The translations under genes were made by a program, and so were the position numbers. DNA of 64,000 bases, taken from positions 11,200,001-11,264,000 of the forward strand of contig CP086569.2 of the NCBI GenBank assembly GCA_009914755.4. The letters are read 5' to 3'. This DNA is from the human T2T-CHM13v2.0 reference genome, Homo sapiens. The notes under the pieces are model-generated. The model worked only from the letters and a program-made list of their open reading frames with translations, was not told the DNA's origin and made no database searches. Positions 1 to 61,868 of the stretch are shown here, one piece after another. Within the stretch, counting starts at the first letter, position 1. The number at the start of each line of letters is the position of its first letter.

Positions 1-76
1 TTCTTTTGAGAGTATTTCACTCTGTTACCAAGACTAGAGTGCAGTGGCACAATCTCAGCTCCCATTTCATTTCACC
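1..76 (-). repeat. Alu 3'-end-derived HOR module type A2
   Basis: gagagtatttcactctgttaccaagactagagtgcagtggcacaatctcagctcccatttcatttcacc; matches reverse complement of Alu 3' terminal ~60 bp with CpG decay; A2 key ttaccaag.ctagag. Confidence 0.8.
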
Positions 77-387
77 ATTCCAATCCATTCCATTCCATTA
101 TATTCCACTCTGTTCAATGCCACTCCACTACATTCCATTACATCCGATTCCACTCCATTCCATTCCTCTCCTCTCTACTCCACTACACTCCACTACATTC
201 CATTCCACTCCATCACCTTCCATTCGGCTCCATTCCACTGCAGTCCACTCCACCCTAATCCAATCCACTTCATTCCATCCCATTCCATCCCATTCCATTC
301 CTCTTCATTCCACTCCAATCCACTTAACTCCACCCACTCCGTTCCAGTCCACTCCATTTCATTGCATTCCATTCCATTCCACTCCAT

Positions 388-467
388 TCCTTTCTTTTGA
401 GATTATCTCACTCTGATACCAATCCTATAGCACAGTGGCAAATTCTCAGCTCACATTTCATTTCACC
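388..467 (-). repeat. Alu-derived HOR module type A (A2-like, diverged)
   Basis: tttcttttgagattatctcactctgataccaatcctatagcacagtggcaaattctcagctcacatttcatttcacc. Confidence 0.7.
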
Positions 468-736
468 ATTCCTTTCCATTCCATTTTATTCCTTTGCATT
501 CCATTCCATTCCACTCCACTCTACTCCAATCATCTCCACTCCATTCCATTCCACTCTGTTCCAGTCCACTCCTCTCCATTCCATTCCATCCCATTTCATT
601 CCACTCATTTCCACTCCATTCCACTCCACTCCATTCTACTCCACTCAAATCCTCTGCTCTCCACTGCACTCCACTCCACAAAATTGCTCTCCAATCCATT
701 CCATTCCATTCCATTTCACTCCATTGCATTCCATTC

Positions 737-829
737 CTTTCTTTCCACAGGATATCACTGTGTTACCCAGGCTTGAGTACAGTGGCACAATCTCAGCTCA
801 CACTTCATATCCAGTTTCCATTGCATTCC
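737..829 (-). repeat. Alu-derived HOR module type E
   Basis: E keys: caggatatcactgtgttacccagg...cagtggcacaatctcagctcaca + 3' extension ttccattgcattcc. Confidence 0.75.
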
Positions 830-1162
830 ATTCTATTCCATTCCATTCCATTCCGTTAAATTCCTTTCCATTCCCTTCCACTCCACTCCACTACGTTTCA
901 TTACATCCAATTCCATTCTACTCTATTCCACTTCTCTCCACTTCACTGCACACTACTTCACTTCATTCCACTCCATCCCATTACATTCCGCTCCATTACT
1001 CTGCACTCCACTCCACCCCACTCCACTCCTGTTGATTCCATTCTATTCAATCCCATTCTATTCTTCTCCATTCCACTCTACTCCACTTCACTCAATTCCA
1101 CTCCACTGCAGTCCAATCCTTTCCATTCCATTCCATTCCATTCCACTGCGTTTCATTCCATT

Positions 1163-1239
1163 CCTTTCTTTCGAGACTATCTCACTCTGTCACCCAGCCT
1201 TTAAGCAGAGTGCACAAACTAAGTTCACATTTCATTACC
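1163..1239 (-). repeat. Alu-derived HOR module type A
   Basis: tttcgagactatctcactctgtcacccagcc...catttcattacc. Confidence 0.7.
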
Positions 1240-1325
1240 ATTCCATTCCATTTCTTTCCTCTACACTCCAGTACTCCTCTCCACTCCATTCCATTCCATT
1301 CCATTTTACTCCATTGCATTGCATT

Positions 1326-1404
1326 CCTTTCTTTTGACAGGTTCTTCCTCTGTCACCCAGGCTGGTGTGTTGTAGCACAATCTCGGCTCACATTTCATTT
1401 CACC
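1326..1404 (-). repeat. Alu-derived HOR module type B
   Basis: B keys: ttttgacagg...ctgtcacccaggctggtgtg...catttcatttcacc. Confidence 0.75.
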
Positions 1405-1503
1405 AATCCATTCCACTACACGCCACTCCACTCCACTGAATTCCACTCCACTCCACTGCAATCCATTCCTTTCCATTACATTCCATTCCATTCCTACTAT
1501 TTC

Positions 1504-1584
1504 ATTTCTTTCTTTTGACAGGATCTCCCTCTGTCACACAGGCTGTAGCATAGTGGTAAAATCTCAGCACACGTTCCTTTTCAC
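1504..1584 (-). repeat. Alu-derived HOR module type C
   Basis: C keys: ttgacaggatctccctctgtcacacaggctgtagcatagtgg...cagcacacgttccttttcacc. Confidence 0.8.
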
Positions 1585-1671
1585 CATTCCATTCCATTCC
1601 ATTCCACTGCATTCCACTCCACCCCACTCCACTCCTCCCCATTCCATTCCATTCCACTCCTTTCAATCCCA

Positions 1672-1751
1672 TTCCTTTCTTTCCACAGGATCTCACCCTG
1701 CCACAAATGCTGGAGTTCTGTGGCACAATCTCAGCTCACTTTTCTTTTCAC
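1672..1751 (-). repeat. Alu-derived HOR module type D
   Basis: D keys: ttccacaggatctcaccctgccacaaatgctggag...cacttttcttttcac. Confidence 0.75.
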
Positions 1752-1934
1752 TATTCCATTGCATTCTATTCCATCCCATTACATTCCACTTTATTTCACT
1801 CCACTCCACTCTAATCCACTCCACTCCACTCCATTCCACTTCACTTCATCCCATTCCATTCGACTCCATTACACTCACCTCCACTCCATTCAATTCCTTT
1901 CCGTTCCATTTCTTTTCACACCATTGCATTCCAT

Positions 1935-2049
1935 TCCTTTCTCTCAACAGGATGTCACTGTGTCCCCCAGGCTGGAGTGCAGTGGAACAATCTCAGCTCA
2001 CATTACATGTCAGCTTTCCATTTCATTGCATTCTATTCCATTGCATTCC
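1935..2049 (-). repeat. Alu-derived HOR module type E
   Basis: caacaggatgtcactgtgtcccccaggctggagtgcagtgg...cacattacatgtcagctttccatttcattgcattctattccattgcattcc. Confidence 0.8.
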
Positions 2050-5001: not shown

Positions 5002-6225
5002 CATTCCACTCCATTCCATTCCACTGCACTCTACTCCACTTAATTCCACTCCACTCCACTCCAATCAATTCCATTCCACTCCTTTCCACTCCATTCCATT
5101 CCATTCCACTCCAATCCACTTCACTCCACTAAACTCCACTCCACTCTACTGCATTCCATTCCGTTCCATTACAATCCACTCTATTCCACTCCATTCCACT
5201 CCACTCCACTCCAGTCCATTCCATTTCATTCCACTCCAATTCATTCCATTCCATTCTACTTCACTCCACTCCATTCCATTTCATTTCATTCCATTCCATT
5301 CCACTCCACTCCACTCCATTCCATTCCATTCCACACCCCTCCAATCCACTTAATTCCACTCCACTTCACTTCCTTCAATTCCACTCCTCTCCAATCCATT
5401 CCTCTCCACTCCATTCTATTCCACTCCAATCGATTCCATTCCACTCCTCTCCATTCCATTCCGTTTCACTCCACTCCCCTCCACTCCATTCCACTAAACT
5501 GCACTCCACACCACTCCATTCCATTCCACTCCACTCCATTCCATTCCACTTCACTCCATTCCACTCTATTGAACTCCACTCCAGTCCATTCCATTCCATT
5601 CTATTCCACTCCATTCCATTCCTCGCTATTCCACTCCACTCCATTCCACTCAACTCCACTTCATTCCACTCCATTCCAGTCCACTCGACTCTACTCGAGT
5701 CCAGTCCACTCCACTACCCTCCATTCCATTCCATTCCATTCCATTACATTACATTGCACTCCGATCCACTCCACTCCACTCCACTCCAGTCCTTTCCATT
5801 CCCTTCCATTCCCTTCCATTCCTTTCCACTCCGATCCACTCCACTCCACTCCAGTCCTTTCCATTCCCTTCCATTCCCTTCCATTCCTTTCCACTCCGTT
5901 CCGTTCCACTCCACTCCACTCCAATGCATTCCATTACATACGAATCCATTCCACTCCAATCCACTCCTCTCCACTCCACTGCACTCCACTCCATTCCACT
6001 CTATCCCATTCCATTCCACTCCATTCCACTGCACTTCACTCTACCCCTTATCACTACACTGCATTATCTTCCATTCCATCCCATTCTGCTCCACTTCACT
6101 ACATTCCACTACACTTCACTCCACTCCATTCCACTCCAGTACACTGCATTCCATTCCATTCCATTCCATTCCATTCCATTCCATTCCATTCCATGGCACT
6201 GCATTCCATTCCATTGCTTTCTTTC

Positions 6226-6294
6226 GAGAGTATCTCACTCTGTCACCCATCCTGGAGTGCAGTGGCACAATCTCAGCTCACATTTCATTTCACC
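6226..6294 (-). repeat. Alu-derived HOR module type A
   Basis: tttcgagagtatctcactctgtcacccatcctggagtgcagtggcacaatctcagctcacatttcatttcacc. Confidence 0.85.
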
Positions 6295-6470
6295 ATTCCA
6301 TTTCATACCATTCCATTCCACTCCACTCCACTAGACTCCACTCCAATCCATTCCACTCCACTTCACTTCACTCCATTGCAGTCCACTCCACTCCTTTCCA
6401 GTCCATCCCATTTCTTTCCACTCCGCTCCACTCCACTCCATTCCATTCCATTCCACTGCTCTCCAGTCCA

Positions 6471-6551
6471 TTCCTTTCTTTTGACAGAATATAACTCTGT
6501 CACCCAGGCCCGTCTGCAGCGGCACAATCTCAGTGCATATTTCATTCCACC
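6471..6551 (-). repeat. Alu-derived HOR module type B (diverged)
   Basis: ttttgacagaatataactctgtcacccaggcccgtctgcagcggcacaatctcagtgcatatttcattccacc. Confidence 0.7.
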
Positions 6552-6683
6552 ATTCCATTCCATTCCATTTAATTCCGTTCCACTGCACTCCACTCCACTG
6601 CACTCTATTCCACTCCACTCCACTCCATTCCATTCCATTCCATTCCATTCCATTCCATTCCATTCCATTCCATTCCATTCCAC

Positions 6684-6762
6684 TTCTTTCTTTCAACATA
6701 TTCTCCCTCTGTCACACAGGCAGCAGCGCAGTGGCAAAATCTCAGCACACGTTTCTTTTTGC
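6684..6762 (-). repeat. Alu-derived HOR module type C
   Basis: caacatattctccctctgtcacacaggcagcagcgcagtggcaaaatctcagcacacgtttctttttgc. Confidence 0.75.
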
Positions 6763-6936
6763 ATTCCATTTCATTCCATTCTATTCCATTCCAATCCCCT
6801 CCACTGCTTTCCACGCCACTCCACTTCACCCCATTCCATTCCACTCTACTCTACGCCATTCCACTCCTTTTCATTCCATTCCACTCCTTTCCTCTCCACT
6901 GCACTTCATTCTATTCCACTCCTTTCCATTTCAATA

Positions 6937-7014
6937 TTTTCTTTTGACAGGATCTCACTCTGTCACGCAGGATGGAGTGCAGTGGCACACTCTCAGCTCA
7001 TATTTCATTTCACC
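6937..7014 (-). repeat. Alu-derived HOR module type B-like (B')
   Basis: ttttgacaggatctcactctgtcacgcaggatggagtgcagtggcacactctcagctcatatttcatttcacc. Confidence 0.7.
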
Positions 7015-7127
7015 ATTCCATTTTATTCCACTCGCCTCCATTCCATTCCATTCCACTCCACTCCAATCCTCTCCATTTTACTTCCCTCCACTCCATTCCA
7101 TTCCATTCTACTCCATTCCGTTACATT

Positions 7128-7207
7128 CATTTATTTTGACTGGATCTCACTCTGTCACCCAGACTGAAGTGCAGTGGCAAAATCTTAGCTCACATTTCAT
7201 TTCACCA
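7128..7207 (-). repeat. Alu-derived HOR module type B-like (B')
   Basis: ttttgactggatctcactctgtcacccagactgaagtgcagtggcaaaatcttagctcacatttcatttcacc. Confidence 0.7.
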
Positions 7208-9059
7208 TTCCATTCCATGCAATTACAGTCCATTCCAATACATTCCATTCCTTTCCATTCCATCACACTCCACTCCACGCCACTCCATTTCAGTCCACTA
7301 TGATACATTGGACTCCAAACATTCCATTCCACTCCATGCCCTTCCATTCCATTTCATTCCACTTCACTCCACAGCACTCCACTCCACTCAATTCAAGTCC
7401 ACTCTACTTCACTCCACTCCACTCCGTTCCAATCCATTCCACACCACTCCTTTGCATTCCACTCTACTCCATACCATTCCACTCCATTCCACTGCACTCC
7501 ACTACATTCCTTTCGACTCCATTTTATTCCATTCCATTCCATTCATTTCCATTCCATTCCATTCCACTCTGTTCCATTCCATTCCATTCCGTTCCAATCC
7601 ATTCCATTCCATACCATCCCATTGCACTCCATTCCACTCCATTCCATTCCATTCAACTACATTCCACGCCACTCTATTCCCTCCCATAGCATTCCATTCC
7701 ATTCCACTCCACCTCACTCCATTCCACTCCACTCCACTCCATTCTACTCCATTCCACTCCACTCCACTCCACTCCATACTATTCCTCTCCACTCCACTCC
7801 ATTCCACTCGATTCCGCTCCATTCCTCTCCACTCCACTCCATTACACTCCATTCTACTCCACTCCACTCCATTCCATTCCATTCCATTCCATTCCACTAC
7901 TCTCCATTCCATTACACTCCACTCTATTCCATTCCATTCCACTCCGTTCAACTCCATTCTATTCCATTCCTTTCCATTCCACTCCACTCCAATCCACTCG
8001 ATACCACTCCACTCCATTCCATACCATTCCACTTCATTCAACTCCATTACACTCAACTCCATTCGACTCCACTGCAATCCATTCCATTCCATTCCCTTCC
8101 AATCCACTCTATTCCATTCCACTCCACTCCATTCCACTCCACTCCTCTCCATTCCACTCCACTCCTCTCCATTCCACTCCACTCCAGTCAACTCCATTCC
8201 ACTCCACTCAAATCCATTCCACTCCCCTCAACTCCATTCCACTCCACTCTCTTCCATTTCACTCCAATCCATTCCATTATGTTCTACTCCAACCTACTCT
8301 ATTCCATTCCATTTCATTCCATTCCACTCCCCGCCACTGCACTCATTTCCATTTCATTCCATTCCACTCCATTCCACTCCACGCCTCTCCACTTCTCTCC
8401 ACTCCATTCAATTCCATTCCATTGCATTCCACTCCTTTCCACTCCACTCCATTCCACTTTACTCCATTGCATTCTGTTCCACTCCACTCCATTCCATTCC
8501 ATTCCACTGCAACCCATTCCATTCCTCTCCATTCTTTTCCACTCCAGTCCATTCCACTCACCTACATTTAACTCCATTCCACTCCATTCCACTCCACTAC
8601 ACTCCTCTTCACTCCTCTCCATTCCATTTTTCTCCTTTCCTTTCCAATCCACCCCATTCCATTCCATTCCACTCCACTCCATTCCAGTCCACTTTTTTCC
8701 ACTCCACTCCACTACATTCCGTTCCACTCCAGTCTACTCCAGTACACTCCACTCCACTCCATGTCACTCAACTACACTATTTTATATCCAATTCCATTTC
8801 ACTCTATTCCACTCCTCTCCCTTCCACTGCCCTTCACTCCACTCCATTAAACTACATCCTGTTCCATTCCCCTCCATTCCAATGCACTCCACTTCTCCCC
8901 ACTCCACTCCACTTCATTCCTTTTCATTCCACCCCATTACATTCCTCTCCATTGCATTACAATCCACTTCAGTCCTCTCCACTCCACTCCAGTCCACTCC
9001 TTTCATTCCATTCCGTTCCATTCCATTCCATCCCATACATTCCACTCTATTCCATTCCA

Positions 9060-9140
9060 TTCCTTTCTTTAGAAAGTATCTCACCCTGTCACACAGCCTG
9101 GATTTCAGTGGCACAATCTCAGATCCCATTTCATTTCACC
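9060..9140 (-). repeat. Alu-derived HOR module type A
   Basis: tttagaaagtatctcaccctgtcacacagcctggatttcagtggcacaatctcagatcccatttcatttcacc. Confidence 0.75.
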
Positions 9141-9324
9141 ATTCCATTCCATTCCATTCCATATCATTCCATTCCACTCCACTGCACTCCACTCCACTCC
9201 ACTCCACTCCATTCCATTCCAATCCACACCTTTCCATTCCATCTCATTCCATTCCTCTCCTTTCCACTCCACTCCACTCCACACCACTCCTGTCCATTCA
9301 ATTCCACTCCATTCCGTTCCGTAC

Positions 9325-9402
9325 ATTTATTTTGACAGGATCTCACTCTGTCTCCCAGGCTGGTGTGCAGTGGCACAATCTCAGCTCACATTTTATTTTG
9401 CC
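9325..9402 (-). repeat. Alu-derived HOR module type B
   Basis: ttttgacaggatctcactctgtctcccaggctggtgtgcagtggcacaatctcagctcacattttattttgcc. Confidence 0.8.
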
Positions 9403-9514
9403 ATTCCATTCCATTCCATTCAGTTTCACTGCACTCCACTCCTGTCCACTCAATTCCACTCCACTCCACTCCAATCCTTTCCATTCAATTCCATTCCAAT
9501 CCCTTGCATTCCAC

Positions 9515-9593
9515 TCCTTTCTTTCGAAAGGATCTCCCTCTGTCACACAGGCTGTAGCACAGTGACACAATCTCAGCACACATTAATTTCACC
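9515..9593 (-). repeat. Alu-derived HOR module type C
   Basis: tttcgaaaggatctccctctgtcacacaggctgtagcacagtgacacaatctcagcacacattaatttcacc. Confidence 0.8.
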
Positions 9594-9790
9594 ATTCCAT
9601 TCCATTCCATTCCATTCCGCTCCATTCCATTCCATTCCACTCCACTCCACTCCTTTCCACTCCACTCCACTCCATTCCATTCCACTCTACTCCACTCCAC
9701 TACACTCTATTTCATTCCATCCCTTTCCATTCCACTCCTATCCAATCCACTCCTCTCCATTCCATTCCATGCCACTGCATTCCATTCTAA

Positions 9791-9867
9791 TATTTTCTTT
9801 TGACAGGATATCTCTGTCACCCAGGCTGGAGTGCAGTGGCACAATCTCAGCTCACATTTCATTTCAT
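9791..9867 (-). repeat. Alu-derived HOR module, E/B hybrid
   Basis: E-type head (gacaggatatctctgtcacccaggctggagtgcag) but B-type tail (catttcatttcatc) lacking the E 3' extension. Confidence 0.65.
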
Positions 9868-9951
9868 CATTCTATTCCATTCCATTCCATTCCATTTCCC
9901 TAAATTCCATTCCTTTCCACTCCACTCCACTCGACTACTCTCCTCTCCACT

Positions 9952-10017
9952 CCATTCCATTCCATTCCATTCCATTCCATTCCATTCCATTCCATTCCAT
10001 TCCATTCCACTCCATTC
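9952..10017. repeat. Perfect (ATTCC)~13 run
   Basis: Uninterrupted attcc units. Confidence 0.85.
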
Positions 10018-10028
10018 CATTCCACTCC

Positions 10029-10104
10029 TTTTTTTCGACTGGATCTCACTCTGTCACCCAGACTGGAGTGCAGTAGCTCTATCTTAGCTCATATTTCATT
10101 TAAC
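10029..10104 (-). repeat. Alu-derived HOR module type B-like (B')
   Basis: tttcgactggatctcactctgtcacccagactggagtgcagtagctctatcttagctcatatttcatttaac. Confidence 0.7.
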
Positions 10105-10960
10105 TATTCCGTTCCATTCCATTCCATTCCGTTCTAGTCAATTTCATTCCAGTACACTCCACACCACTCCACTCCATTCCATTCCACTCCATTCCACTCC
10201 ACTCCACTCCATTCCCTTCTACTCCATTCCATTCAATTCCCTACCATTCCATTCCATTCCACTCCACTCCAGTCTACTCCACTTCACTACATTCCATTCT
10301 ATTCCATTCCATTCCATTCCACTCCACTCCACTCCTCTCCACTCCATTCCACTAAATTCCACTCTGCTGCATTCCATTCTACTCTACTATAATACACTCT
10401 ACTCCATGCCACGCCACTCCACTCCACTCAAATGCATTCCACTCCATTGTACTCAATTCCTCTCCACTCCCCTCAACTCCAATCCATTGCACTCCATTCT
10501 ACTTCATTTCATTCCATTCCATTCCACTTCACTCCATTACATTCCATTCCACTCTACTCCATTCCATTCCATTCCATTCCCCTCCACTCCGTTCCATTCC
10601 ATTCCATTCCATTCCATTCCATTCCATTCCATTCCACTCCACTCCTCACCACTCCACTCCACTCCATTCCATTCCATTCCTTTCTCTTCCAATCCATTCC
10701 ACTCTGCTCCACCCCACTCCACTCCATTCCACTCAAATCAATTCCATTCCACTCCATTCCACTCCATTCCACTCCACTCCATTCCAGTCCACTCCATTCC
10801 TCTTCACTCTACTCCATTCCACTCCACTTAATTCCACTCCAGTCCACTCTAGTCCAATCCCTTCCACTCCAATCCACTCCTCTCAATTTCATACCCCTGC
10901 ACTCCATTCCATTCCACTGCACTCCAATCCACTACACTCAACTCTACTCCACTCCACTCC

Positions 10961-11014
10961 TCTAGGCTCTGTTTGGTTCCATTTGTTTTCTTCTGTTCCT
11001 TTCAACTTCAATCC
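10961..11014 (-). repeat. Non-pentamer insert resembling a module T-tract without Alu core
   Basis: tctaggctctgtttggttccatttgttttcttctgttcctttcaacttcaatcc; ttcctttcaac matches the E/C-type T-tract but is followed directly by satellite. Confidence 0.5.
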
Positions 11015-11140
11015 ACTCCATTCCTTCCCCCTCAACTACATTCCATTACATCAGATTCCATTTCACACCATTCCACTCCTCTCCACTCCACTCCACTCCA
11101 TTCCATTCCATACCACTGCATTCCATTCCAATATTTTCTT

Positions 11141-11211
11141 TCGACAGAATCTCACTCTGCCACCCAAGTTGAAGCGCAGTGGCACAATCTCAGCTCACAT
11201 TTCATTTCACC
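11141..11211 (-). repeat. Alu-derived HOR module type B-like (B')
   Basis: tttcgacagaatctcactctgccacccaagttgaagcgcagtggcacaatctcagctcacatttcatttcacc. Confidence 0.7.
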
Positions 11212-11639
11212 ATTCCATTCTCCTCCATTCCATTTCATTCCACTCCACTCCACTCCTCTCCATTACACTCCACTCCACTCCATTTTATTCCACTCCACTT
11301 CATTCCATTCCACTCCATTCCATTCCACTCTATTCCATTTCATTCCACTCCACTCCACTCCACTCCATTCCACTCCACTCCACTCCATTCCATTCTACTC
11401 CATGCCATTCCATTCCACTCAATTGAATTCGACTTCGTTCCATTCCAGTCCACTCCACTCCACTCGACTCCATTTCAGTCTGCTCCATTCCATTCCATTC
11501 CACTCCATCCCATTCCATTTGACTCCATTCCACTCCACTTCACTACATTCTACTCCACTCCACTCCACTCCACTCCACTCCACTCCACTCTACTCCACTC
11601 TATTCCATTCCATTCCATTCCATTCCATTGCATTCCATT

Positions 11640-14804: not shown

Positions 14805-15215
14805 ATTCCATTCCATTCCTTTCTATTCCATTCCATTCCATTAGATTACATTACATTACATTACACTCCACACCACTCCAGTCCACTCCACTCCACTCCA
14901 CTCCACTCCTGTCCATTCCATTTCACTTCACTCCACTCTAAACATTGCACTGCACTCCACTCCTCTCCAATACATTCCACTCCATTCTATCCCACTCCAC
15001 TCCACTCCACTCTGTTTCACTCCACTCCATTCCAATCCACTCCACTCCATTCCATTCCACTCCACTCCACTCCATCCATTCCACTCCACTCCATTCCATT
15101 AAATTCCATTCCATTCCATTTCACTCCACTCCACTCCACTCCACTCCATTCCATTCCACTCCACTCATCTCCACTCCTTTCCTTTCCATTCTATTCCATT
15201 ACATTGCACTTCATT

Positions 15216-15339
15216 ACTTTCTTTTGACAGGATATCACTGTGTCACTCAGGTTGGAGTGCAGTGGCACAATCTCAGCTCACATTACATGTCAACTTTTCT
15301 TTTTATTGCATTCTATTCAATTACATTCCATTGCATTCC
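15216..15339 (-). repeat. Alu-derived HOR module type E
   Basis: ttttgacaggatatcactgtgtcactcaggttggagtgcagtggcacaatctcagctcacattacatgtcaacttttctttttattgcattctattcaattacattccattgcattcc. Confidence 0.8.
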
Positions 15340-15671
15340 ATTCCATTCCATTCCATTCCATTCTATTCCATTCCACACCATTCCACTCCACTCCACTCCC
15401 CTCAGCTACATTCCATTGCATCCGATTCCATTCCATTCCATTCCACTCCTCTCCCCTCCACTGCACTTCACTACACTCCATTCCACTCCATCCCATTCCA
15501 TTCGGCTCCATTCCACTGCACTCCCCTCCACCCCAATCCACTCCACTTAAATCCATTCCATCCCATTCCATTCCTCTCGATTCCACTCCAATCCACTTCA
15601 CTCCACTCCACTCCAATCCAGTCCACTCCATTTCATTGCATTCCATTCCATTCCACTCCATTTCATTCCAT

Positions 15672-15751
15672 TCCTTTCTTTCAAGAGTATCTCACTCTGT
15701 CACCCATACTGGAGCACAGTGGCAGAATCTCACCTCACATTTCATTTCACC
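15672..15751 (-). repeat. Alu-derived HOR module type A
   Basis: tttcaagagtatctcactctgtcacccatactggagcacagtggcagaatctcacctcacatttcatttcacc. Confidence 0.8.
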
Positions 15752-16190: not shown

Positions 16191-16269
16191 TTTTTTTTCT
16201 TTCCACAGCATCTCTCTCTGTCACAAAGGCTGCAGTGCAGTGGCACAGTCAGCTTCATTTCTTTTCACC
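16191..16269 (-). repeat. Alu-derived HOR module type D
   Basis: ttccacagcatctctctctgtcacaaaggctgcagtgcagtggcacagtcagcttcatttcttttcacc. Confidence 0.75.
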
Positions 16270-16380
16270 ATTCCATTGCATTCCATTCCATCCCTTTCCA
16301 TTCCACTCTATTTCACTCTACTCCACTCCACTCCATTCCATTCCATTCTATTACATTCCATTTCACTCCATTGAATTTCA

Positions 16381-54747: not shown

Positions 54748-54910
54748 TTCAATTTCTTTCCATTCCATCCCATTCCATTCCACTCTATTTCACTCCACTC
54801 CACTAAACTCCATTCCATTCCTCTCCATCCCTTTCCATTCGACTCCACTCCACTCCATTCCACTCAATTCCATTACCTTCAATTCGAATTCACACCATTG
54901 CATTCCATTG

Positions 54911-55023
54911 CTTTCTTTCGACGGGATATCACGGTGTCACCCAGGCTTGTGTGCAGTGGTACAATCTCAGCTCACAATACATGTCAGCTTTCCATTGTAT
55001 TGCATTCTATTCCATTGCATTCC
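54911..55023 (-). repeat. Alu-derived HOR module type E
   Basis: tttcgacgggatatcacggtgtcacccaggcttgtgtgcagtggtacaatctcagctcacaatacatgtcagctttccattgtattgcattctattccattgcattcc. Confidence 0.85.
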
Positions 55024-55346
55024 ATTCCATTCCATTCCATTCCATTCCATTCCATTCCATTCCATTCCATTCCTGTGCATTCCATTCCTGTGCATTCCAT
55101 TCCATTCCTTCTCATTCAGTTCCATTCCTTTCCACTCTGTTCCACTCCACTCCACTCCACTACATTCCATTACATGCAATTTCATTCCACTCCATTCCAC
55201 TCCTCTCCACTCCAAAGCACTCCACTCCACTCTATTCCACTACATCCATTCCATTCCACTCCATTCCACTGCAATCTACTCCACCCCACTCCACTCCACT
55301 TCATTCCATTTCATCCCCTTCCATTGAATTCCCTTTCGTTCCACTG

Positions 55347-55423
55347 CTTTCTTTCGACAGGATCTCTCTGTCACACAGGCTGTAGCATAGTGCCACGATC
55401 TCAACACACATTTCTTTTCACCA
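55347..55423 (-). repeat. Alu-derived HOR module type C
   Basis: tttcgacaggatctctctgtcacacaggctgtagcatagtgccacgatctcaacacacatttcttttcacc. Confidence 0.9.
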
Positions 55424-55874
55424 TTCCATTCCATTCCATTCCATGCCATTCCATTAAATTCCACTCCACTACACTCAACTCCACTACACTCCACTCCACT
55501 CCTCTCCACTCAATACCTTTCCCCTCCATTCAACTCTACTCATTCCACTCCAATCCACTCCATTCCATTCCACTCCACTCCATGCCACTCCACTCCACTC
55601 AACTACACTCCATTGCATTCCACTCCACTCAACTCCATTCCACTCCACTCAACTCCATTTCACTGCACTCCATTGCTATCCACTCCACTCCACTCCAATC
55701 TACTCCATTCCATTCCACTCTGCTCCATTCCACTCCATTCCAATCCATTCCACTCCACTCCATTCCAATCCATTCCATTCCATTCCACTCCACTCCATTC
55801 CACTCCATTCCATTCTGCTCCACTCACCTCCACTAAACTCCTCTCCATTCCATTCCACTCGATTCCATTCCATT

Positions 55875-55954
55875 CCTTTCTTTCCAGAGGATCTCTCTCT
55901 GTCACAATGGCTCGAGTGCAGTGGCACAATCTCAGCTCACATTTATTTTCACCA
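55875..55954 (-). repeat. Alu-derived HOR module type D
   Basis: ttccagaggatctctctctgtcacaatggctcgagtgcagtggcacaatctcagctcacatttattttcacc. Confidence 0.85.
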
Positions 55955-56045
55955 TTCCATTGCATTCCATTCCATCCCATTCCATTACACTCCACTCCAC
56001 TCCATTCCATTCCATTCTATTACATTCCATTTCACTACATTGAAT

Positions 56046-56174
56046 TTCTTTTCTTTCTTTCAACGTGATATAACTGTGTCACCCAGGCTGCTGTGCGGTG
56101 GCACAATCTCCACTCACATTACATGTCAACTTTCCATTACATTGCATTCTTTCCATTGCATTCCATTGCATTCC
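56046..56174 (-). repeat. Alu-derived HOR module type E
   Basis: caacgtgatataactgtgtcacccaggctgctgtgcggtggcacaatctccactcacattacatgtcaactttccattacattgcattctttccattgcattccattgcattcc. Confidence 0.85.
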
Positions 56175-56460
56175 TTTCCATTCCATTCCACTCTGTTCCA
56201 CTCCACTCAACTCCACTCCACTGCTTTCCATTATATATGATTGCATTACACTCTACTCCACTCCTCTCTACTCCACTGCACTTCACTCCAATCCATTAAT
56301 TCCAACCCAATCCCTTCCTCTGCAGTCTCCTCACTCCACTCCACTTAATTCCTTTCCATTCCATCCTATTCCATTCTGCTCAATTCCACTCCACTCCACA
56401 TCACTCCACTCCACTCCATTCCAATCCACTCCATTCCATCCAACTACATTCCAATCCATT

Positions 56461-56540
56461 CCTTTCTTTCGAGAGTATCTCACTCTGTCACACAGCCTGG
56501 AGCGCAATGGCACAATCTCAGCTCACATTTCATTTCACCA
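56461..56540 (-). repeat. Alu-derived HOR module type A
   Basis: tttcgagagtatctcactctgtcacacagcctggagcgcaatggcacaatctcagctcacatttcatttcacc. Confidence 0.9.
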
Positions 56541-56743
56541 TTCCATTCTATTCAAATCGATTTCATTCCATTCCATTCCGCTCCACTCCACTCCACTCCA
56601 TTCCAATCCATTCCATTCAACTCCACTCCATTCCATTCCAGTCCACTCCTCTCCTTTCTATTCCATCCCATTCCATTCCACTCCTTTCCACTCCACTCCA
56701 CTCCAGTCCATTGCATTCCATTCCACTCCATTCCATTCCATGA

Positions 56744-56821
56744 CTTTCTTTTGACAGGATCTCACTCTGTAACCCAGGCTGGTGTGCAGTGGCACAATCT
56801 CAGCTCACATTTCATTTCACC
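56744..56821 (-). repeat. Alu-derived HOR module type B
   Basis: ttttgacaggatctcactctgtaacccaggctggtgtgcagtggcacaatctcagctcacatttcatttcacc. Confidence 0.9.
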
Positions 56822-56934
56822 ATTCCATTGCACTTCATTCCATACCACTGAAATCCACTGCAATCCGCCAATTTCACTCCACTCCACTCCAATCCATTCC
56901 ATTCCATTATACTCTAATCCCTTCTATTACATTC

Positions 56935-57012
56935 CCCTCTTTTGACAGGGTCTCCCTCTGTCACACAGGCTGTAGCGTATTCGCCAAATCTCAGTAAATA
57001 TTTCTTTTCAGC
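56935..57012 (-). repeat. Alu-derived HOR module type C
   Basis: ttttgacagggtctccctctgtcacacaggctgtagcgtattcgccaaatctcagtaaatatttcttttcagc. Confidence 0.85.
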
Positions 57013-57333
57013 ATTGCATTCCAGTCTTTTCTTTTGCATTCTGTTCCATTCCATTCCATTCCGTTCCACAACACTTCACTGCACTCCACTCCTTTCCTTT
57101 CCACTCCACGCCATCCCACTGAACTCCACTCCACTCCACTTCACTCCACTCCATTCCATTCCAATCCATTCCAATCCACTCCACACCACTTCATTCCACT
57201 CCACTCAACTCCACTCAATTCCACTCCACTGCATTCTGCTCCATTCCACTCCACTCCATTCCACTCCACTCCAGTCTACTTCATTCCACTCCACTCCACT
57301 CCATTCCACTCCGTTCCACTCCATTCCATTCCA

Positions 57334-57414
57334 TTTCTTTCTTTTTGTAGGATCTCACTCTGTCGCAAAGCCTGCAGTGTAGTTGCACAAATTCAGCTCA
57401 TATTTCTTTTGACC
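57334..57414 (-). repeat. Alu-derived HOR module type D-like (D')
   Basis: ttttgtaggatctcactctgtcgcaaagcctgcagtgtagttgcacaaattcagctcatatttcttttgacc; same variant as module at 17682. Confidence 0.8.
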
Positions 57415-57615
57415 ATTCCATTGCATTCCATTCCATCCCATTCCATTACACTCTATTTCACTCTACTCGACTCCACTCCACTCCACTCCATTCCATTCCA
57501 CTCCATCCCATTCCTTTAGACTCCATTCCACTCCACTCCATTCCACTCTTCTCCAGTACACTCCAATCCCCTCTATTAAATTCCATTTCAGTCCATTTCA
57601 ATCCATTGATTCCAT

Positions 57616-57730
57616 TCCTTTCTTTTGACAAGATATCACTGTGTCACCCAGGCTGGAGTGCAGTGGCACAATCTCAGCTCACATTACATGTCAACTTTCC
57701 ATTGCATTGCATTCTATTCAATTGCATTCC
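57616..57730 (-). repeat. Alu-derived HOR module type E
   Basis: ttttgacaagatatcactgtgtcacccaggctggagtgcagtggcacaatctcagctcacattacatgtcaactttccattgcattgcattctattcaattgcattcc. Confidence 0.9.
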
Positions 57731-58183
57731 ATGGCATTCCATTCGATTCCATTCCATTCTGTTTCATTCCTTTCTGTTCCATTCCATTCTGTTCCATTCC
57801 ATTCCATTAGATTCCACTCCATTCCACTCCATCCCACTCCACTCCACTTCATTCCATTCCATTCCAACCAATTCCATTCTTCTTCATTCCACTCCACTCC
57901 ACTCCATTCCACTATATTCCTTTCCACTCCACTCCATTCCACTCCACTCCTTTCCACTCCACTACACTCCACTCCATTCCACTCCATTCCACTCCACTCT
58001 TCTCCATTCCACTCCACTCCATTCACCTCCACTCCACTCCATTCCACTCCACTCAAATCCACTCCTCTCCACTCCACTCCACTTCACTCCACTCCACTCC
58101 ATTCCACTCCACTTCTCTCCATTCCACTCCAATCCACTCCACTCCACCCCACTCCATTCCATTCCATTCCACTCCATTCCATT

Positions 58184-58262
58184 CCTTTCTTTCCACAGGA
58201 TCTCACTCTGTGACAAAGGCTGGAGTGCAGTGGCACTATTTCAGCTCACTTTTATTTTTGCC
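58184..58262 (-). repeat. Alu-derived HOR module type D
   Basis: ttccacaggatctcactctgtgacaaaggctggagtgcagtggcactatttcagctcacttttatttttgcc. Confidence 0.85.
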
Positions 58263-58483
58263 ATTGTATTGCATTCCACTGCATCCCATTCCATTCCATT
58301 CTATTTCACTCCACTCCACTCCCCTCCACTCCACTCCACTCCACACCCTTCCATTCCAACGCATAACATTCCATTCGACTCCATTTCACTCTACTCCACT
58401 CCGCTCCTATCATCTCCACTCCATTCCACTCTATTGCTTTCCATTCCATTCCATTTTATTTCACTCCACTGCATTCCATTCGT

Positions 58484-58604
58484 TTCTTTTGACAGGATAT
58501 CAGTGTGTCACCCAGTCTGGAGAGCAGTGGCACAATCTCAGCTCACATTACATGTCAACTTTCCTTTTTATTGCATTCTATTCAATTACATTCCATTGCG
58601 TTCC
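58484..58604 (-). repeat. Alu-derived HOR module type E
   Basis: ttttgacaggatatcagtgtgtcacccagtctggagagcagtggcacaatctcagctcacattacatgtcaactttcctttttattgcattctattcaattacattccattgcgttcc. Confidence 0.85.
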
Positions 58605-59198
58605 ATGCCATTCAATTTTTATTCCATTCCATTAAATTCCATTCCATTCCACTCCGTTCCACACTACTCCACTACATTACATTACATCCGATTCCATTCC
58701 ACTCCATTCCACACCTATCCACTCCACTGCACTCCACGCCAATCCATTCGGCTCTATCCCATTCCATTCCGCTACATTCCACTGCACTCCACTCCACCCA
58801 ACTACATTCAACTTCATTCCATTCAATTCCATCCAATTCCAGTCTTCTCCATTACACTCCACCTCATTCCACACCTCTCCATTCCACTCCACTCGTTTCT
58901 ACTACACTCCATTCCAGTCCACACCATTCCACTCCACTCCACTCCACTCCATTCCACTCCACTCCACTACAATCTACTCCATTCCACTCCCCTCCATTCC
59001 ACTCCACTCCACTAAATTCCCCATTCCACTCCACTCCACTAAATTCCACCCTACTCCATGCCACTCCATTCCACTCCACTCCACTCCCTTCCACTCCACT
59101 CCACTCAATTGCACTCCACTACACTCCATTCCACTCTACTCCACTCCACTCCTCTCCATTACACTCCACTCCACTCCAATCCACTCCATTCCATTCCA

Positions 59199-59279
59199 TT
59201 CCTTTCTTTCCACAGGATCTCCCTCTGTCACAAAGTCTGGAGTGCAAAGGCACAATCTGAGATCACATTTCTTTTCACT
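59199..59279 (-). repeat. Alu-derived HOR module type D
   Basis: ttccacaggatctccctctgtcacaaagtctggagtgcaaaggcacaatctgagatcacatttcttttcac. Confidence 0.85.
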
Positions 59280-59464
59280 ATTCTATTGCTTTCCATTCCA
59301 TCCCATTCCATTCCAGTCTATTTCACTCCACTCCACTGCACTTCACTCCATTCCATTCCACTCCATCACATTCCATTCTACTCCATTCAACTCCACTCCA
59401 CTCCACTCCATTCCACAACACTCCACTCTACTCCATTGCATTCCATTTCACTCCATTGCATTCC

Positions 59465-59580
59465 ATTCCTTTCTTTCGACAGTATATCTCTGTGTCACCC
59501 AGGCTGCTGTGCAGTGGCACAATTCCAGCTCATATTACATGTCAACTTTCCATTACATTGCATTCTATTCCATTGCATTC
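59465..59580 (-). repeat. Alu-derived HOR module type E
   Basis: tttcgacagtatatctctgtgtcacccaggctgctgtgcagtggcacaattccagctcatattacatgtcaactttccattacattgcattctattccattgcattcgattgc. Confidence 0.85.
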
Positions 59581-59900
59581 GATTGCTTTCCTTTCCATTC
59601 CATTCCATTCCATTCCATTCCATTCCATTCCATTCCACTCCGTTCCACTGCACTCCACTCCACTAGATTTAATTACATCTGTCTCCATTCCACTGCATTC
59701 CACTCCTGTCTACTCCACCGCATTCCACTCCACTCCATTCCACTCCATCCCATTCCATTACGCTCCAATCCACTGCACTCCACCCTACCCCACTCCACTC
59801 CACTTCATTCCATTCCATTCCATCCCATTTCATTCCTCTCCATTCCAATCCACTCCACTCCACTCCACTCCTCTCGAGTCCATGCCATTCCATTCCATTC

Positions 59901-59940
59901 CACAGCATTCCCTTCCATTCCACAGCATTCCCTTCCATTC
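59901..59940. repeat. 20-bp tandem duplication
   Basis: cacagcattcccttccattc x2 immediately upstream of an A module. Confidence 0.85.
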
Positions 59941-60017
59941 CTTTTTTTAGAGTATCTCACTCTGTCACCCAGCCTGAAGCGCAGTGGCATAATCTCAGCT
60001 CACATTTCATTTCACCA
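59940..60017 (-). repeat. Alu-derived HOR module type A
   Basis: ttttagagtatctcactctgtcacccagcctgaagcgcagtggcataatctcagctcacatttcatttcacc. Confidence 0.9.
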
Positions 60018-60199
60018 TTCCATTCCATTCCATTCCTTTCTATTTCACTCCACTATACTCCACTCTTGTCCTCTCCAATTGATACCACTCCACTCCATTC
60101 CAGTCCACTCCACTCCTTTCCATTCCATCCCATTCCATTCCAATCCACTCCACTCAACTCCACTCCATTCCATTCCATTCCACTTCATTCCATTCCATT

Positions 60200-60277
60200 C
60201 CTTTCTTTTGACAGGATCTCACTCTTTTACCCAGAATGGTGTGCAGTGACTCAATCTCAGCTCACATTTCTTTTCAC
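60200..60277 (-). repeat. Alu-derived HOR module type B
   Basis: ttttgacaggatctcactcttttacccagaatggtgtgcagtgactcaatctcagctcacatttcttttcacc. Confidence 0.85.
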
Positions 60278-60406
60278 CATTCCATTCCACTCCATTGCAT
60301 TCCATTCCATTCCATTCCACTGCACTCCACTCCACACCACTCAATTCCACTCCACTCTACTCCAGTCCATTTCTTTCCATTACATTCCAATCCCTTCTAT
60401 TCCACT

Positions 60407-60486
60407 CATTTCTTTCGACAGGATCTCCCTCTGTCACACGGGCTGTAGCTTAGTGGTACAAACTCAGCACACATTCCTTTTCAACA
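60407..60486 (-). repeat. Alu-derived HOR module type C
   Basis: tttcgacaggatctccctctgtcacacgggctgtagcttagtggtacaaactcagcacacattccttttcaac. Confidence 0.9.
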
Positions 60487-60889
60487 TTCTATTTCATTCC
60501 TTTCCATTCCTTTCCATTCCATTCCATTCCATTCCACTCCACTACACTACACGCCATTCCATTCCACTCCATTCCACTGCACTCCACTCAAGTCCGCTCC
60601 ACTCCACTCCAATCCATTTCATTCCAATCTATTCCATTCTACTCCACTCCACTCCACACCAATCCACTCCTCTCCACTCCATTCCATTCCATTCCACACC
60701 ATTCCACTGCCCTCCACTTCACCCCACTCCAGTACATTCCACTGCCTTCCATTCCACTCCACTCCAGTTCACTCCACTCCACTCCACTCCACTGCATTCC
60801 ACTTCACTCCACTCCACTCCATTCCCCTCCACTCCATTCCACTCCACTCCACTGAACTCCATTTCATTCTATTCCAATCCCTTTCATTC

Positions 60890-60973
60890 CATTTCTTTCT
60901 TTCCACCGAATCTCTCTCTGTCACGAAGTCTGTAGTGCAGTAGCTCAATCTCAGCTCACATTTATTTACACCA
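60890..60973 (-). repeat. Alu-derived HOR module type D
   Basis: ttccaccgaatctctctctgtcacgaagtctgtagtgcagtagctcaatctcagctcacatttatttacacc. Confidence 0.85.
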
Positions 60974-61159
60974 TTCCATTGCATTCCATTCCATCCCATT
61001 CCATTCCACTCTTTTTCACTCCACTCCACTCCACTCTACTCAATCCCATTTCACTCAATCCCATTCCATTCGACTCCATTCCACTCCACTCAACTCCACT
61101 CCTATCCACTCCTTTCCATTCCATTCTATTCCATTACATTGCATTCCATTGCATTCCAT

Positions 61160-61284
61160 TCCTTTCTTTCAACAGGGTGTCACTGTGTCATCCAGGTTGG
61201 AGTGCAGTGGCACAATCTCAGCTCACATTACATGTCAACTTTCCATTTCATTACATTCTATTCAACTGCGTTCCTTTGCATTCC
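61160..61284 (-). repeat. Alu-derived HOR module type E
   Basis: caacagggtgtcactgtgtcatccaggttggagtgcagtggcacaatctcagctcacattacatgtcaactttccatttcattacattctattcaactgcgttcctttgcattcc. Confidence 0.85.
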
Positions 61285-61632
61285 ATTCCATTCCATTCTG
61301 TTCCATTCCGTTTCAGTCGATTCCATTCCATTCCACTCCGTTCCCCTCCACTCCACTAAGCTCAACTACATTCCATTACATCTGATTCCGTTACACTCCA
61401 TTCCACTCCTCTCCACTCCACTCCATTCCACTGCATCCCATTACATTCGGCTCCATTCCACTGCACTCTACTCCACCCCAATCCACTCCACTTAAATCCA
61501 TTCCATTCCATCCCATTCCATTCCTCTCCATTCCACTCCAATCCACTTCACTCCACTCCACTCCACTCCACTCCAGTCCAACTTCATTTCATTGTGTTCC
61601 ATTCCATTCCATTCCACTCCATTCCATTCCAT

Positions 61633-61710
61633 TCTTTCTTTCGAGAGTATCTCACTCTGTTACCAAGCCTAGAGCACAGTGGCACAATCTCAGCTCACAT
61701 TTCGTTTCAC
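61633..61710 (-). repeat. Alu-derived HOR module type A2 (last module before array end)
   Basis: tttcgagagtatctcactctgttaccaagcctagagcacagtggcacaatctcagctcacatttcgtttcacc. Confidence 0.9.
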
Positions 61711-61868
61711 CATTCCATTCCATTCCATTCCATTCCCCTCCATTCCACTCCACTCCACTCCACCACATTCAATTACATCCGATTCCATTCCACTCCATTC
61801 CACTGCTGTCCATTCCACTGCATTCCACTCCACTTTCTGTATAGCCTGCAGAACGGTGGGCCAATTAA

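What the first reader, a model, noticed from the sequence alone, without database searches (positions are those of the whole stretch)
1..61836. Pentamer satellite organised as an irregular 1.1-1.8 kb higher-order repeat defined by five cyclically ordered Alu-fragment module types
About 165 islands share the same anatomy: a T-tract, then the last ~60 bp of an Alu in antisense, with an identical truncation point at ...cagctcac joined to atttcatttcacc. They occur in the same orientation throughout the (ATTCC)n array. The islands sort into five sequence types (A/A2, B, C, D, E; E carries a ~45-bp 3' extension cattacatgtcaactttccattgcattgc). The order A>B>C>D>E>A is kept in almost every transition, even when members are skipped (e.g. 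A-C, A-B-C-E, D-E-D-E). Complete units occur at 23966-25071 (1.1 kb), 37001-38713, 39096-40846, 44273-46039, 47248-48752, 51802-53374 and 59940-61633 (1.5-1.77 kb). The simplest reading is one 5'-truncated Alu inserted into an ancestral satellite and co-amplified with it, then diversified into HOR positions and reshuffled by unequal crossing-over. I cannot tell from memory whether this exact HOR has been catalogued (e.g. as a named HSat3 subfamily), so it deserves a database comparison.
Basis: seen in the sequence. Interest (0 to 1): 0.6.

Follow-up and report, generated by a model that had tools for sequence, protein, structure and literature searches.

The report
Alu-tagged satellite 3 with five-part repeat
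This is a stretch of primate (almost certainly human) satellite 3 DNA. One old Alu tail fragment was copied along with the 5-bp repeat and now marks a decayed five-part unit of about 1.6 kb; the pattern is real, but it is an example of a kind of satellite already described.

Summary
A profile search finds 165 Alu-tail modules in window 1-61836, all on the + strand. 151 of them share the same truncation junction without a gap. Unsupervised clustering gives five types: A 41, B 26, C 23, D 34, E 41. The order A>B>C>D>E>A accounts for 104 of 164 transitions, against 33.5 +/- 5.1 in shuffles. Spacings are type-specific (262, 192, 467, 252, 443 bp), which gives a unit of about 1.6 kb. The 100 bp of satellite upstream, not used for typing, predicts the type in 100 of 131 cases.

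Copies are only 79-88 % identical, and identity does not depend on distance, so this is an old, non-homogenised repeat. The same five types, order and spacings recur in 120 unrelated metagenome contigs (156 of 184 transitions), which are paralogous arrays.

The literature already reports Alu fragments inside HSat3 repeat units and 1.5-1.75 kb satellite III units. I found no explicit description of the five-position scheme. I could not assign a chromosome or subfamily.

The parts
1..61836 (+). Satellite 3-type array, with the C-rich strand on +. It is made of roughly equal numbers of CATTC and CACTC pentamers and carries 165 Alu-tail modules. It runs off the left end of the window.
   Evidence: TRF finds period 5/15 over 2016-61634. 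GC skew is about -0.75 up to 62 kb. Apart from the modules there is only one 35-bp non-periodic island.
39093..40842 (+). One complete unit (A2-B-C-D-E), 1750 bp. Modules start at 39093 (A), 39500 (B), 39687 (C), 40154 (D) and 40391 (E). Each module is about 87 bp: T-tract, about 57 bp of antisense Alu 3' end, and a 17-bp conserved junction flank.
   Evidence: Module map; type assignment.
36997..38715 (+). Complete unit A-B-C-D-E, 1719 bp. Modules at 36997, 37288, 37514, 37988 and 38240.
59937..61629 (+). Last complete unit before the array edge, 1693 bp. Modules at 59937, 60197, 60404, 60891 and 61158. A final A2 module starts at 61630.
23964..25067 (+). Shortest complete unit, 1104 bp, with a short C-D spacer of 177 bp.
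6213..11216 (+). Variant sub-pattern A-B-C-f-g followed by 1.1-1.9 kb of module-free pentamers, present twice (period about 2.85 kb). In joint clustering with external modules, the extra modules fall into types f and g, not B.
   Evidence: The same ABCfg string occurs in external contigs L021, L035 and L075.
15202..20140 (+). Older copy 1 of a co-linear duplication of at least 5 kb. It carries the irregular string E-A-D-E-A-B-C-D-E-D-E-D-E.
   Evidence: Self-BLAST: 15202-18476 against 54896-58146 (80.9 %, 3363 columns) and 18273-20140 against 57823-59632 (80.8 %).
54896..59632 (+). Copy 2 of the same duplication.
   Evidence: module strings.
42313..43744 (+). Run of four D modules (42313, 42420, 43051, 43658), including a pair spaced 107 bp apart. 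This is a local out-of-register duplication.
   Evidence: TRF 42287-42528, period 107, 85 %.
61837..61884 (.). End of the array: about 50 bp of non-repeat sequence between the last pentamers and the flank Alu.
   Evidence: Read directly from the sequence; the composition changes here.
61885..62215 (-). Full-length, diverged Alu in the flank, not part of the array. It serves as an internal reference for the Alu homology of the modules.
   Evidence: Rfam gives two Metazoa_SRP half-matches at 61932-62076 and 62094-62210 on the minus strand. The module profile hits 61927-61988.
63717..63920 (-). Exon-like fragment of 68 codons, with a cag acceptor and a GAG|gt donor, homologous to the SHANK-family N-terminal domain. 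It belongs to the flank, not to the satellite.
   Evidence: Translation. Homology search: 76 hits, PF16511, best non-self hit 84 %. An ENA contig is 100 % identical over 598 bp.

Best explanation
Window 1-61836 is a satellite 3 (HSat3-type) array whose repeat is nested on three levels:
1. the CATTC/CACTC pentamer;
2. a sub-repeat of about 190-470 bp, marked by one fixed fragment, namely the last ~60 bp plus degenerate A-tail of an Alu, antisense on the + strand and cut at Alu position ~223;
3. a unit of about 1.6 kb made of five diverged sub-repeats in the order A-B-C-D-E.

The most likely history is as follows. One Alu landed in, or was trimmed within, a pentamer tract. Its CpGs decayed. The tagged sub-repeat was then multiplied in tandem, and five neighbouring copies diverged. 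That five-part block was amplified and spread to several arrays. Afterwards the copies drifted apart to 79-88 % identity with no further homogenisation. Out-of-register exchange and larger segmental duplications produced the partial and repeated patterns (A-D-E, DEDE, DDDD, ABCfg).

Nothing indicates a function for the Alu piece; I read it as a passive marker of descent.

Shown here: single origin, five types, cyclic order, type-specific spacers, lack of local homogenisation, and presence of the same unit in other arrays.

Inferred: the insertion and trimming event, unequal crossing-over as the mechanism, and the relative timing.
For: - 165 modules, all on the + strand.
- The junction is gap-free in 151 of 165 modules, and no module extends into the Alu body.
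- The module consensus aligns to Alu consensus positions ~223-282 plus the tail.
- The former CpG sites are uniformly CA in 87-95 % of modules.
- Five types are recovered. The nearest neighbour is of the same type in 99.4 % of cases, and there is no correlation between sequence distance and physical distance.
- 104 of 164 transitions are canonical, against 33.5 +/- 5.1 in shuffles.
- Median spacings are AB 262, BC 192, CD 467, DE 252 and EA 443 bp.
- The upstream 100 bp, not used for typing, predicts the type in 100 of 131 cases; the same-type score excess has z=14.6.
- All long self-alignments are 79-88 % identical and none is inverted.
- TRF finds local periods of 107-247 bp at 67-85 %, which is homology at the sub-repeat level.
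- Replication outside the window: 120 external contigs with 724 modules. Joint clustering recovers the same five types. 156 of 184 transitions are canonical, with medians of 267, 192, 397, 252 and 452 bp.
- Same-type divergence inside the window (0.145-0.176) equals that between window and external modules (0.137-0.161).
- Literature: HSat3 repeat units include TE fragments; HSat3-Alu fragments occur on Y and the acrocentrics without local homogenisation.
Against: - The silhouette for five clusters is modest (0.24), and A and B merge at k=4.
- 37 % of transitions are not canonical.
- There is no sharp k-mer periodicity at 1.6 kb, so a periodicity tool may not call a unit here.
- Target-site duplications cannot be read in a pentamer background, so retrotransposition followed by truncation, as opposed to later deletion, is untested.
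- The Alu subfamily cannot be called from 60 bp. My from-memory alignment slightly favours AluJ (score 93 against 90), while the T2T-Y paper calls such fragments AluY.
- A divergence of 8-12 % from the type consensus looks too old for AluY at ordinary rates.
- External contigs were selected with a junction pattern, which biases them towards conserved modules.
Confidence: 0.85

Rival explanations
1. The islands are independent Alu insertions into the satellite, with a strong insertion-site preference in (GGAAT)n.
For: Alu elements prefer TT/AAAA-like sites, and Alu is abundant near satellites (general knowledge). A separate full-length Alu in the same orientation sits 50 bp outside the array.
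Against: All 165 modules share one truncation point, one orientation, one 17-bp non-Alu junction flank and the same decayed CpG states. The modules sort into five positional types with fixed spacings. Independent 5'-truncated insertions would have scattered end points.
Confidence: 0.01
2. The five-part order was not generated in this array. The window would then be a patchwork of blocks imported from other HSat3 arrays by inter-array (for example inter-acrocentric) exchange and segmental duplication, and merely inherits a unit formed elsewhere.
For: Same-type modules are no closer within the window than to external arrays. An old duplication of at least 5 kb carries an identical irregular string. 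The segment 6.2-11.2 kb has a pattern (ABCfg) typical of other contigs.
Against: This is a refinement and not a contradiction: it still needs the single-founder, five-position unit. There are no inversions and no foreign sequence at block edges in 62 kb. Identity is uniformly 79-88 %, with no younger imported blocks.
Confidence: 0.3
3. The Alu-tail fragment was spread into an existing satellite by gene conversion or template switching, and is maintained because it does something (a protein-binding or nucleosome-positioning site). On this view it is not a passenger of tandem duplication.
For: The module core is better conserved than the surrounding pentamers in some columns, about 90 % at CAATCTCAGCTCACA. 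HSat3 is a known platform for transcription-factor binding (paper PMC11526998).
Against: The spacers next to each type are homologous too, and the spacings are type-specific; both are expected from duplication of whole blocks. Modules have diverged 8-12 % from their type consensus with a drift-like spectrum. Some modules are further truncated (54303). No test of function was possible.
Confidence: 0.05
4. The pattern is an assembly artefact, with collapsed or chimeric satellite reads producing an irregular repeat.
For: Satellite arrays are hard to assemble, and the irregular order could in principle reflect chimeras.
Against: The same types, order and spacings are seen in 120 independently assembled short-read contigs. 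Units differ by 12-21 %, which gives an assembler plenty of unique markers. The flank is 100 % identical to an independent contig.
Confidence: 0.03

Closest known systems
HSat3 arrays interspersed with Alu fragments on chrY and the acrocentric short arms (Rhie et al., T2T-Y preprint 10.1101/2022.12.01.518724; Altemose et al. 10.1101/2021.07.12.452052)
   Same: A pentamer satellite with short Alu fragments as part of the repeating unit, and no local homogenisation of the fragments. External f-type contigs with the same module carry the exact HSat3A4 signature 24-mer.
   Different: Those papers, as far as I could read them, do not describe five positional module types or a cyclic order. [quoted passage not shown] The subfamily of this window is not established.
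Cloned acrocentric, chr10 and chr22 satellite III repeat units (pW-1 1524 bp, pE-1 1748 bp, pR-1 1529 bp, pR-2 1556 bp, pTRS-47 1366 bp), assigned to HSat3A1/A2/A4 in Altemose 2014 Table S1
   Same: Unit length: complete units in the window are 1104-1759 bp, with a cluster at 1.69-1.76 kb.
   Different: The length match alone is weak evidence.
HSat1B / DYZ2 (2.5 kb unit containing an AluY-derived part)
   Same: A satellite whose unit includes an Alu-derived segment inherited from a single founder.
   Different: DYZ2 has a much longer Alu part, an >85 % AT block, and units that are >98 % identical. Here there is only a ~60-bp Alu tail in a pentamer background, five per unit, and units are 79-88 % identical.
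Alpha-satellite higher-order repeats
   Same: Homologous sub-repeats that have diverged into positional types and recur in a fixed cyclic order. Variants arise by gain or loss of sub-repeats.
   Different: The sub-repeats here have unequal, type-specific lengths (192-467 bp). Units are old and not homogenised, whereas active alpha HORs are typically >95 % identical. There is no relation to centromere function. Altemose et al. would call this a nested tandem repeat.
DYZ1 (HSat3A6, 3.6 kb) and D15Z1 (HSat3A5, 1.8/3.6 kb)
   Same: HSat3 arrays with kilobase-scale nested units.
   Different: Their signature 24-mers are absent from the window, even with two mismatches allowed (0-1 hits). Those arrays are highly homogeneous.

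Membership tests
Human satellite 3 (HSat3) | Array derived from the (CATTC)n / (GGAAT)n pentamer | tested here: met
   ATTCC occurs 2908 times on one strand and GGAAT 15 times. TRF finds period 5 over 2652-61634. The CACTC variant is nearly as frequent as CATTC.
Human satellite 3 (HSat3) | [quoted passage not shown] | tested here: inconclusive
   There are no exact matches. The nearest are 3A2 (2 hits at 1 mismatch, 42 at 2), 3A4 (2 and 21) and 3B5 (0 and 26). The stored copy of the full 24-mer list covers only HSat2A1.
Human satellite 3 (HSat3) | Pericentromeric or acrocentric short-arm location in a hominoid genome | not testable with these tools
   No primate genome is available here. Indirect support: Alu is present, the flank is 100 % identical to a host-contamination contig, and external contigs of the same module family carry the HuRef-derived HSat3A4 24-mer.
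HSat3B group | Presence of the CAACCCGA(A/G)T-type 10-mer (ACTCGGGTTG on the other strand), as in the HSat3B1 signature 24-mer. The defining role of this motif is from my memory of Prosser 1986. | tested here: not met
   Neither the 10-mers nor TCGGGTTG occurs at all.
Human satellite 2 (HSat2) | HSat2 signature 24-mers and a diverged CATTC-derived repeat rich in TCGA and ATCGAT-type sites | tested here: not met
   There are no hits for the 2A1, 2A2 or 2B 24-mers, even with two mismatches.
Nested tandem repeat / higher-order repeat | Distinct sub-repeats recurring in a fixed cyclic order, more often than chance | tested here: met
   104 of 164 transitions against 33.5 +/- 5.1. Replicated as 156 of 184 against 37.4 +/- 5.4 in external contigs.
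Nested tandem repeat / higher-order repeat | Whole-unit homology, including the sequence between the markers | tested here: met
   The upstream spacer predicts the type in 100 of 131 cases. Co-linear self-alignments reach 3.4 kb. Spacings are type-specific.
Homogenised HOR of the alpha-satellite kind | Near-identity between units (about 95-100 %), with higher identity between neighbours | tested here: not met
   Units are 79-88 % identical, and Spearman is about 0 between physical and sequence distance.
Alu-derived sequence | Homology to the Alu right arm 3' end plus A-tail | tested here: met
   The module profile hits the flank Alu, which Rfam identifies as a dimeric SRP-related element. The alignment to from-memory Alu consensus covers positions ~223-282, and all CpG differences are transitions. 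No Dfam or RepeatMasker was available for a formal call.
HSat1B / DYZ2 | 2.5-kb unit with a long Alu part and an >85 % AT block | tested here: not met
   GC is 0.45-0.48 throughout. Only ~60 bp of Alu is present per module, and there is no AT-rich block.

The most novel reading that the evidence does not exclude
All Alu-tagged HSat3A-type arrays, including the HSat3A4 arrays of the acrocentric chromosomes and the array sampled here, would descend from one founder sub-repeat carrying a single truncated Alu tail. They would be organised as true higher-order repeats of that sub-repeat. The Alu fragments would then group by position in the unit (A-E, plus f-k elsewhere) and not by chromosome. That would explain why the T2T-Y analysis found no clustering by chromosome. 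It would also give a ready-made 'monomer alphabet' for decomposing HSat3A arrays, in the way alpha satellite is decomposed. As far as I could read, this has not been stated in the literature.
Probability: 0.35. Interest if true: 0.4.

Novelty: already known. Interest (0 to 1): 0.25.

Why it matters
It matters mainly as an annotation aid. The five module consensus sequences, plus the extra types seen in other contigs, could serve as markers. With them, StringDecomposer-style tools could break HSat3A arrays into units, trace exchange between acrocentric short arms, and date the spread of these arrays in apes. The analysis also shows that a satellite can keep a recognisable higher-order order long after homogenisation has stopped. 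It does not reveal a new kind of element or a function.

Tried and rejected
- Subfamily assignment. Only the single most common signature 24-mer of each of the 14 subfamilies was usable, and none matched exactly. The stored copy of the full 24-mer list holds only HSat2A1.
- Original clone papers. Choo 1990 and Choo 1992 are not held, and Bandyopadhyay 2001 was not found.
- Chromosome placement through the flank. The SHANK-like exon and a literature search for a pericentromeric SHANK2 pseudogene gave no location. The only contig encoding the flank ORF is 716 bp long.
- Genome-contig scan for the junction pattern: no hits.
- Finding the same locus among the metagenome contigs: no contig is more than 92 % identical to the window over more than 250 bp, so they are paralogues.
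- A sharp 1.6-kb periodicity in 14-mer spacing is not seen. There is only a weak ~2.7-kb bump from a few local duplicates.
- Alu subfamily call. The alignment to from-memory J, S and Y consensus sequences is indecisive.
- Absolute dating was rejected. The 8-12 % divergence and a ts/tv below 1 suggest atypical mutation dynamics.
- Reading the 'E extension' as an insertion was rejected.
- One BLAST run timed out and was repeated with megablast.

Full report
**What is in the window.**
- Positions 1-61836 are one uninterrupted, single-orientation pentamer satellite. The C-rich strand is on + (GC skew about -0.75).
- TRF reports period 5/15 across 2016-61634 at 63-64 % matches.
- CATTC-phase and CACTC-phase pentamers are almost equally frequent.
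- At 61837 the satellite ends. After about 50 bp comes a full-length, diverged Alu on the minus strand (61885-62215). Rfam recognises it as two SRP-related halves.
- The remaining flank is ordinary interspersed-repeat and unique DNA. It includes an exon-like SHANK-family fragment at 63717-63920 on the minus strand.

**Checking the observation: the modules.**
- I built a profile from the five islands of 23966-25071 and searched with nhmmer. It finds 166 hits, all on the + strand: 165 inside the array and one on the flank Alu.
- The modules share one anatomy: ...ATTCC TTTCTTT(C/T)GA(C/G)AG..., then about 57 bp of antisense Alu ending in CAATCTCAGCTCACA, then TTTCATTTCACCATTCC.
- In the multiple alignment, 151 of 165 modules have no gap in the 26 columns around the junction.
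- No module continues into the Alu body. Alu-internal 13-15-mers are found only in the flank Alu.
- Outside the modules, only one 35-bp stretch of the whole array lacks 5-bp periodicity. There are no other insertions.

**The Alu homology.**
- The reverse complement of the module consensus aligns to positions ~223-282 plus the A-tail of Alu consensus sequences.
- Every difference at a former CpG site is a C>T or G>A transition.
- On the + strand these sites are uniformly CA in 87-95 % of modules, not a TG/CA mixture. The CpGs therefore decayed in the common ancestor, before amplification.
- The 60 bp do not allow a subfamily call: the alignment scores are 93 for AluJ and 90 for AluS/Y.

**The five types.**
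- Ward clustering of pairwise distances gives five groups with distinct consensus sequences: A 41, B 26, C 23, D 34, E 41.
- Within-type divergence is 0.15-0.18 and between-type divergence 0.20-0.28. The closest sequence neighbour is of the same type for 99.4 % of modules and is physically adjacent for only 2 of 165.
It always follows E and often occurs as a doublet.
The E flank aligns without gaps to the flank of the other types and is simply a diverged version, followed by CATTG-type pentamers.

**Order and spacing.**
- In the order A>B>C>D>E>A, 104 of 164 transitions are canonical, against 33.5 +/- 5.1 in 20000 shuffles (z=13.8).
- The number of cycles needed to read the string is 63, against 98.8 +/- 3.6 in shuffles. 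ABCDE is the best of all 24 cyclic orders.
- The non-canonical transitions are 27 forward skips, 19 single backward steps and 14 same-type repeats. 'Almost every transition' is therefore too strong.
A-to-A lengths are 1104-1759 bp.
- Median spacings are characteristic of each step: AB 262, BC 192, CD 467, DE 252, EA 443 bp. They sum to about 1.6 kb.

**An independent test of whole-unit homology.**
- I took the 100 bp of plain satellite upstream of each module. This sequence was not used to define the types.
- It predicts the type of the following module in 100 of 131 usable cases by 5-nearest-neighbour voting. Same-type pairs score higher than different-type pairs with z=14.6.
- The pentamer spacers therefore belong to the repeat too. 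This is a nested unit and not a row of inserted markers.

**Age and homogenisation.**
- All long self-alignments are 79-88 % identical, whatever the distance between them, and none is inverted.
- Within each type, sequence distance does not correlate with physical distance (Spearman -0.09 to 0.05).
- 14-mer spacing shows no sharp 1.6-kb peak. TRF sees only local periods of 107-247 bp at 67-85 %, which is homology between neighbouring sub-repeats.
- The stretch 15202-20140 is co-linear with 54896-59632 at about 81 %, and both carry the same irregular string (EADEABCDEDEDE). Irregular patterns were therefore themselves duplicated long ago.
- Positions 6213-11216 show a different pattern: A-B-C-f-g plus a long module-free tract, present twice.

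**Related sequences elsewhere.**
- I scanned metagenome contigs for the junction pattern. They contain 724 modules, never on mixed strands.
- No contig is the same locus as the window.
- Joint clustering recovers the same five types, each with about 44-91 external members. It also gives further types (f-k), of which f is closest to the overall consensus.
- Among adjacent A-E modules in these contigs, 156 of 184 transitions are canonical (null 37.4 +/- 5.4). Median spacings are 267, 192, 397, 252 and 452 bp. Examples are L011 ABCDEABC, L059 ABCDEAB and L032 ABCEABCDEABCDgAB.
- Of the 533 external modules that the search pattern did not select, 472 have the same gap-free junction.
- Same-type divergence inside the window equals that between window and external modules. 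The five-part unit therefore predates the spread of these arrays, and nothing has homogenised them since.
- Seven f-type contigs contain the exact HSat3A4 signature 24-mer of Altemose 2014. This ties the module family to a named human subfamily. The window and the ABCDE-type contigs carry none of the 14 signature 24-mers, apart from one HSat2A2 match in L006, so their subfamily is open.

**What is already known.**
[quoted passage not shown] They propose the term nested tandem repeat for kilobase-scale HSat2/3 units.
[quoted passage not shown] It reports no local homogenisation and no clustering by chromosome.
- Altemose 2014 Table S1 lists cloned satellite III units of 1366-1748 bp for HSat3A1/A2/A4.
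- The kind of element, and very probably this family, are therefore described.
- I did not find an explicit statement that the Alu fragments fall into five positional types in a fixed cycle. My access to the older clone papers failed.

**Verdict.**
- The element is an old, decayed, Alu-tagged nested repeat of HSat3.
- It is ordinary for this class of DNA. The one modestly new point is that the Alu fragments group by position in the unit.
- Chromosome, subfamily and species could not be fixed with the tools available.

Noticed in passing
window 63717-63920 (minus strand): A 204-bp exon-like segment with a cag acceptor and a GAG|gt donor. It encodes 68 aa homologous to the SHANK-family N-terminal domain (PF16511); the best non-self hit is 84 % identical. 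It looks like a pseudogene fragment next to the satellite.
   Followed up: partly
window 63403-64000 and locus L121: An ENA metagenome contig (ERZ1645191 NODE_62769, 716 bp) is 100 % identical to the window flank over 598 bp. It continues 118 bp beyond the window end. This is evidence that the locus occurs as host contamination in public metagenomes.
   Followed up: yes
all modules, window 1-61836 and loci L001-L120: Substitutions measured against the type consensus have an unusually low transition/transversion ratio: 0.89 in the window and 0.78 in short-read contigs. They are biased from G/C towards A/T. I have no explanation for this.
   Followed up: partly
loci L015, L038, L041, L046, L074, L084, L109: Contigs made of the generic 'f' module type contain the exact HSat3A4 signature 24-mer AATTCCATTCCTTCCCATTCCATT. 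ABCDE-type contigs contain none of the 14 signature 24-mers, apart from the single HSat2A2 match in L006.
   Followed up: partly
loci L035, L073, L022, L098, L082, L050: Other arrays show longer recurring module strings that reuse D-E-A inside a larger pattern, for example iDEABCfgffffABDfjffff, jfffhiDEAff and gjffhfDEkk. This suggests bigger units built from at least 11 module types.
   Followed up: no
window 6213-11216: A variant pattern, A-B-C-f-g followed by 1.1-1.9 kb of module-free pentamers, occurs twice with a period of about 2.85 kb. It matches the ABCfg strings in external contigs L021, L035 and L075.
   Followed up: partly
window 15202-20140 and 54896-59632: An old co-linear duplication of about 5 kb at about 81 % identity. 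Both copies carry the same irregular module string.
   Followed up: yes
window 54303-54390: One module keeps only about 20 bp of the Alu part (CAATCTCAGCTCTCA) together with the usual junction flank. This is a secondary deletion.
   Followed up: no
window 42287-42528: Two D modules lie only 107 bp apart (TRF period 107, 85 % matches) within a D-D-D-D run.
   Followed up: no
locus L006: A 1650-bp external contig with modules A-E-A also contains the HSat2A2 signature 24-mer. It may be a junction between HSat2 and this HSat3 type.
   Followed up: no
window 63190-63560: The flank contains a sequence I recognise by eye as a common human interspersed repeat (tattagtctattttcacactgctataaagaaatacctgagactgggtaatttataaagg...). 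I did not identify it with any tool.
   Followed up: no
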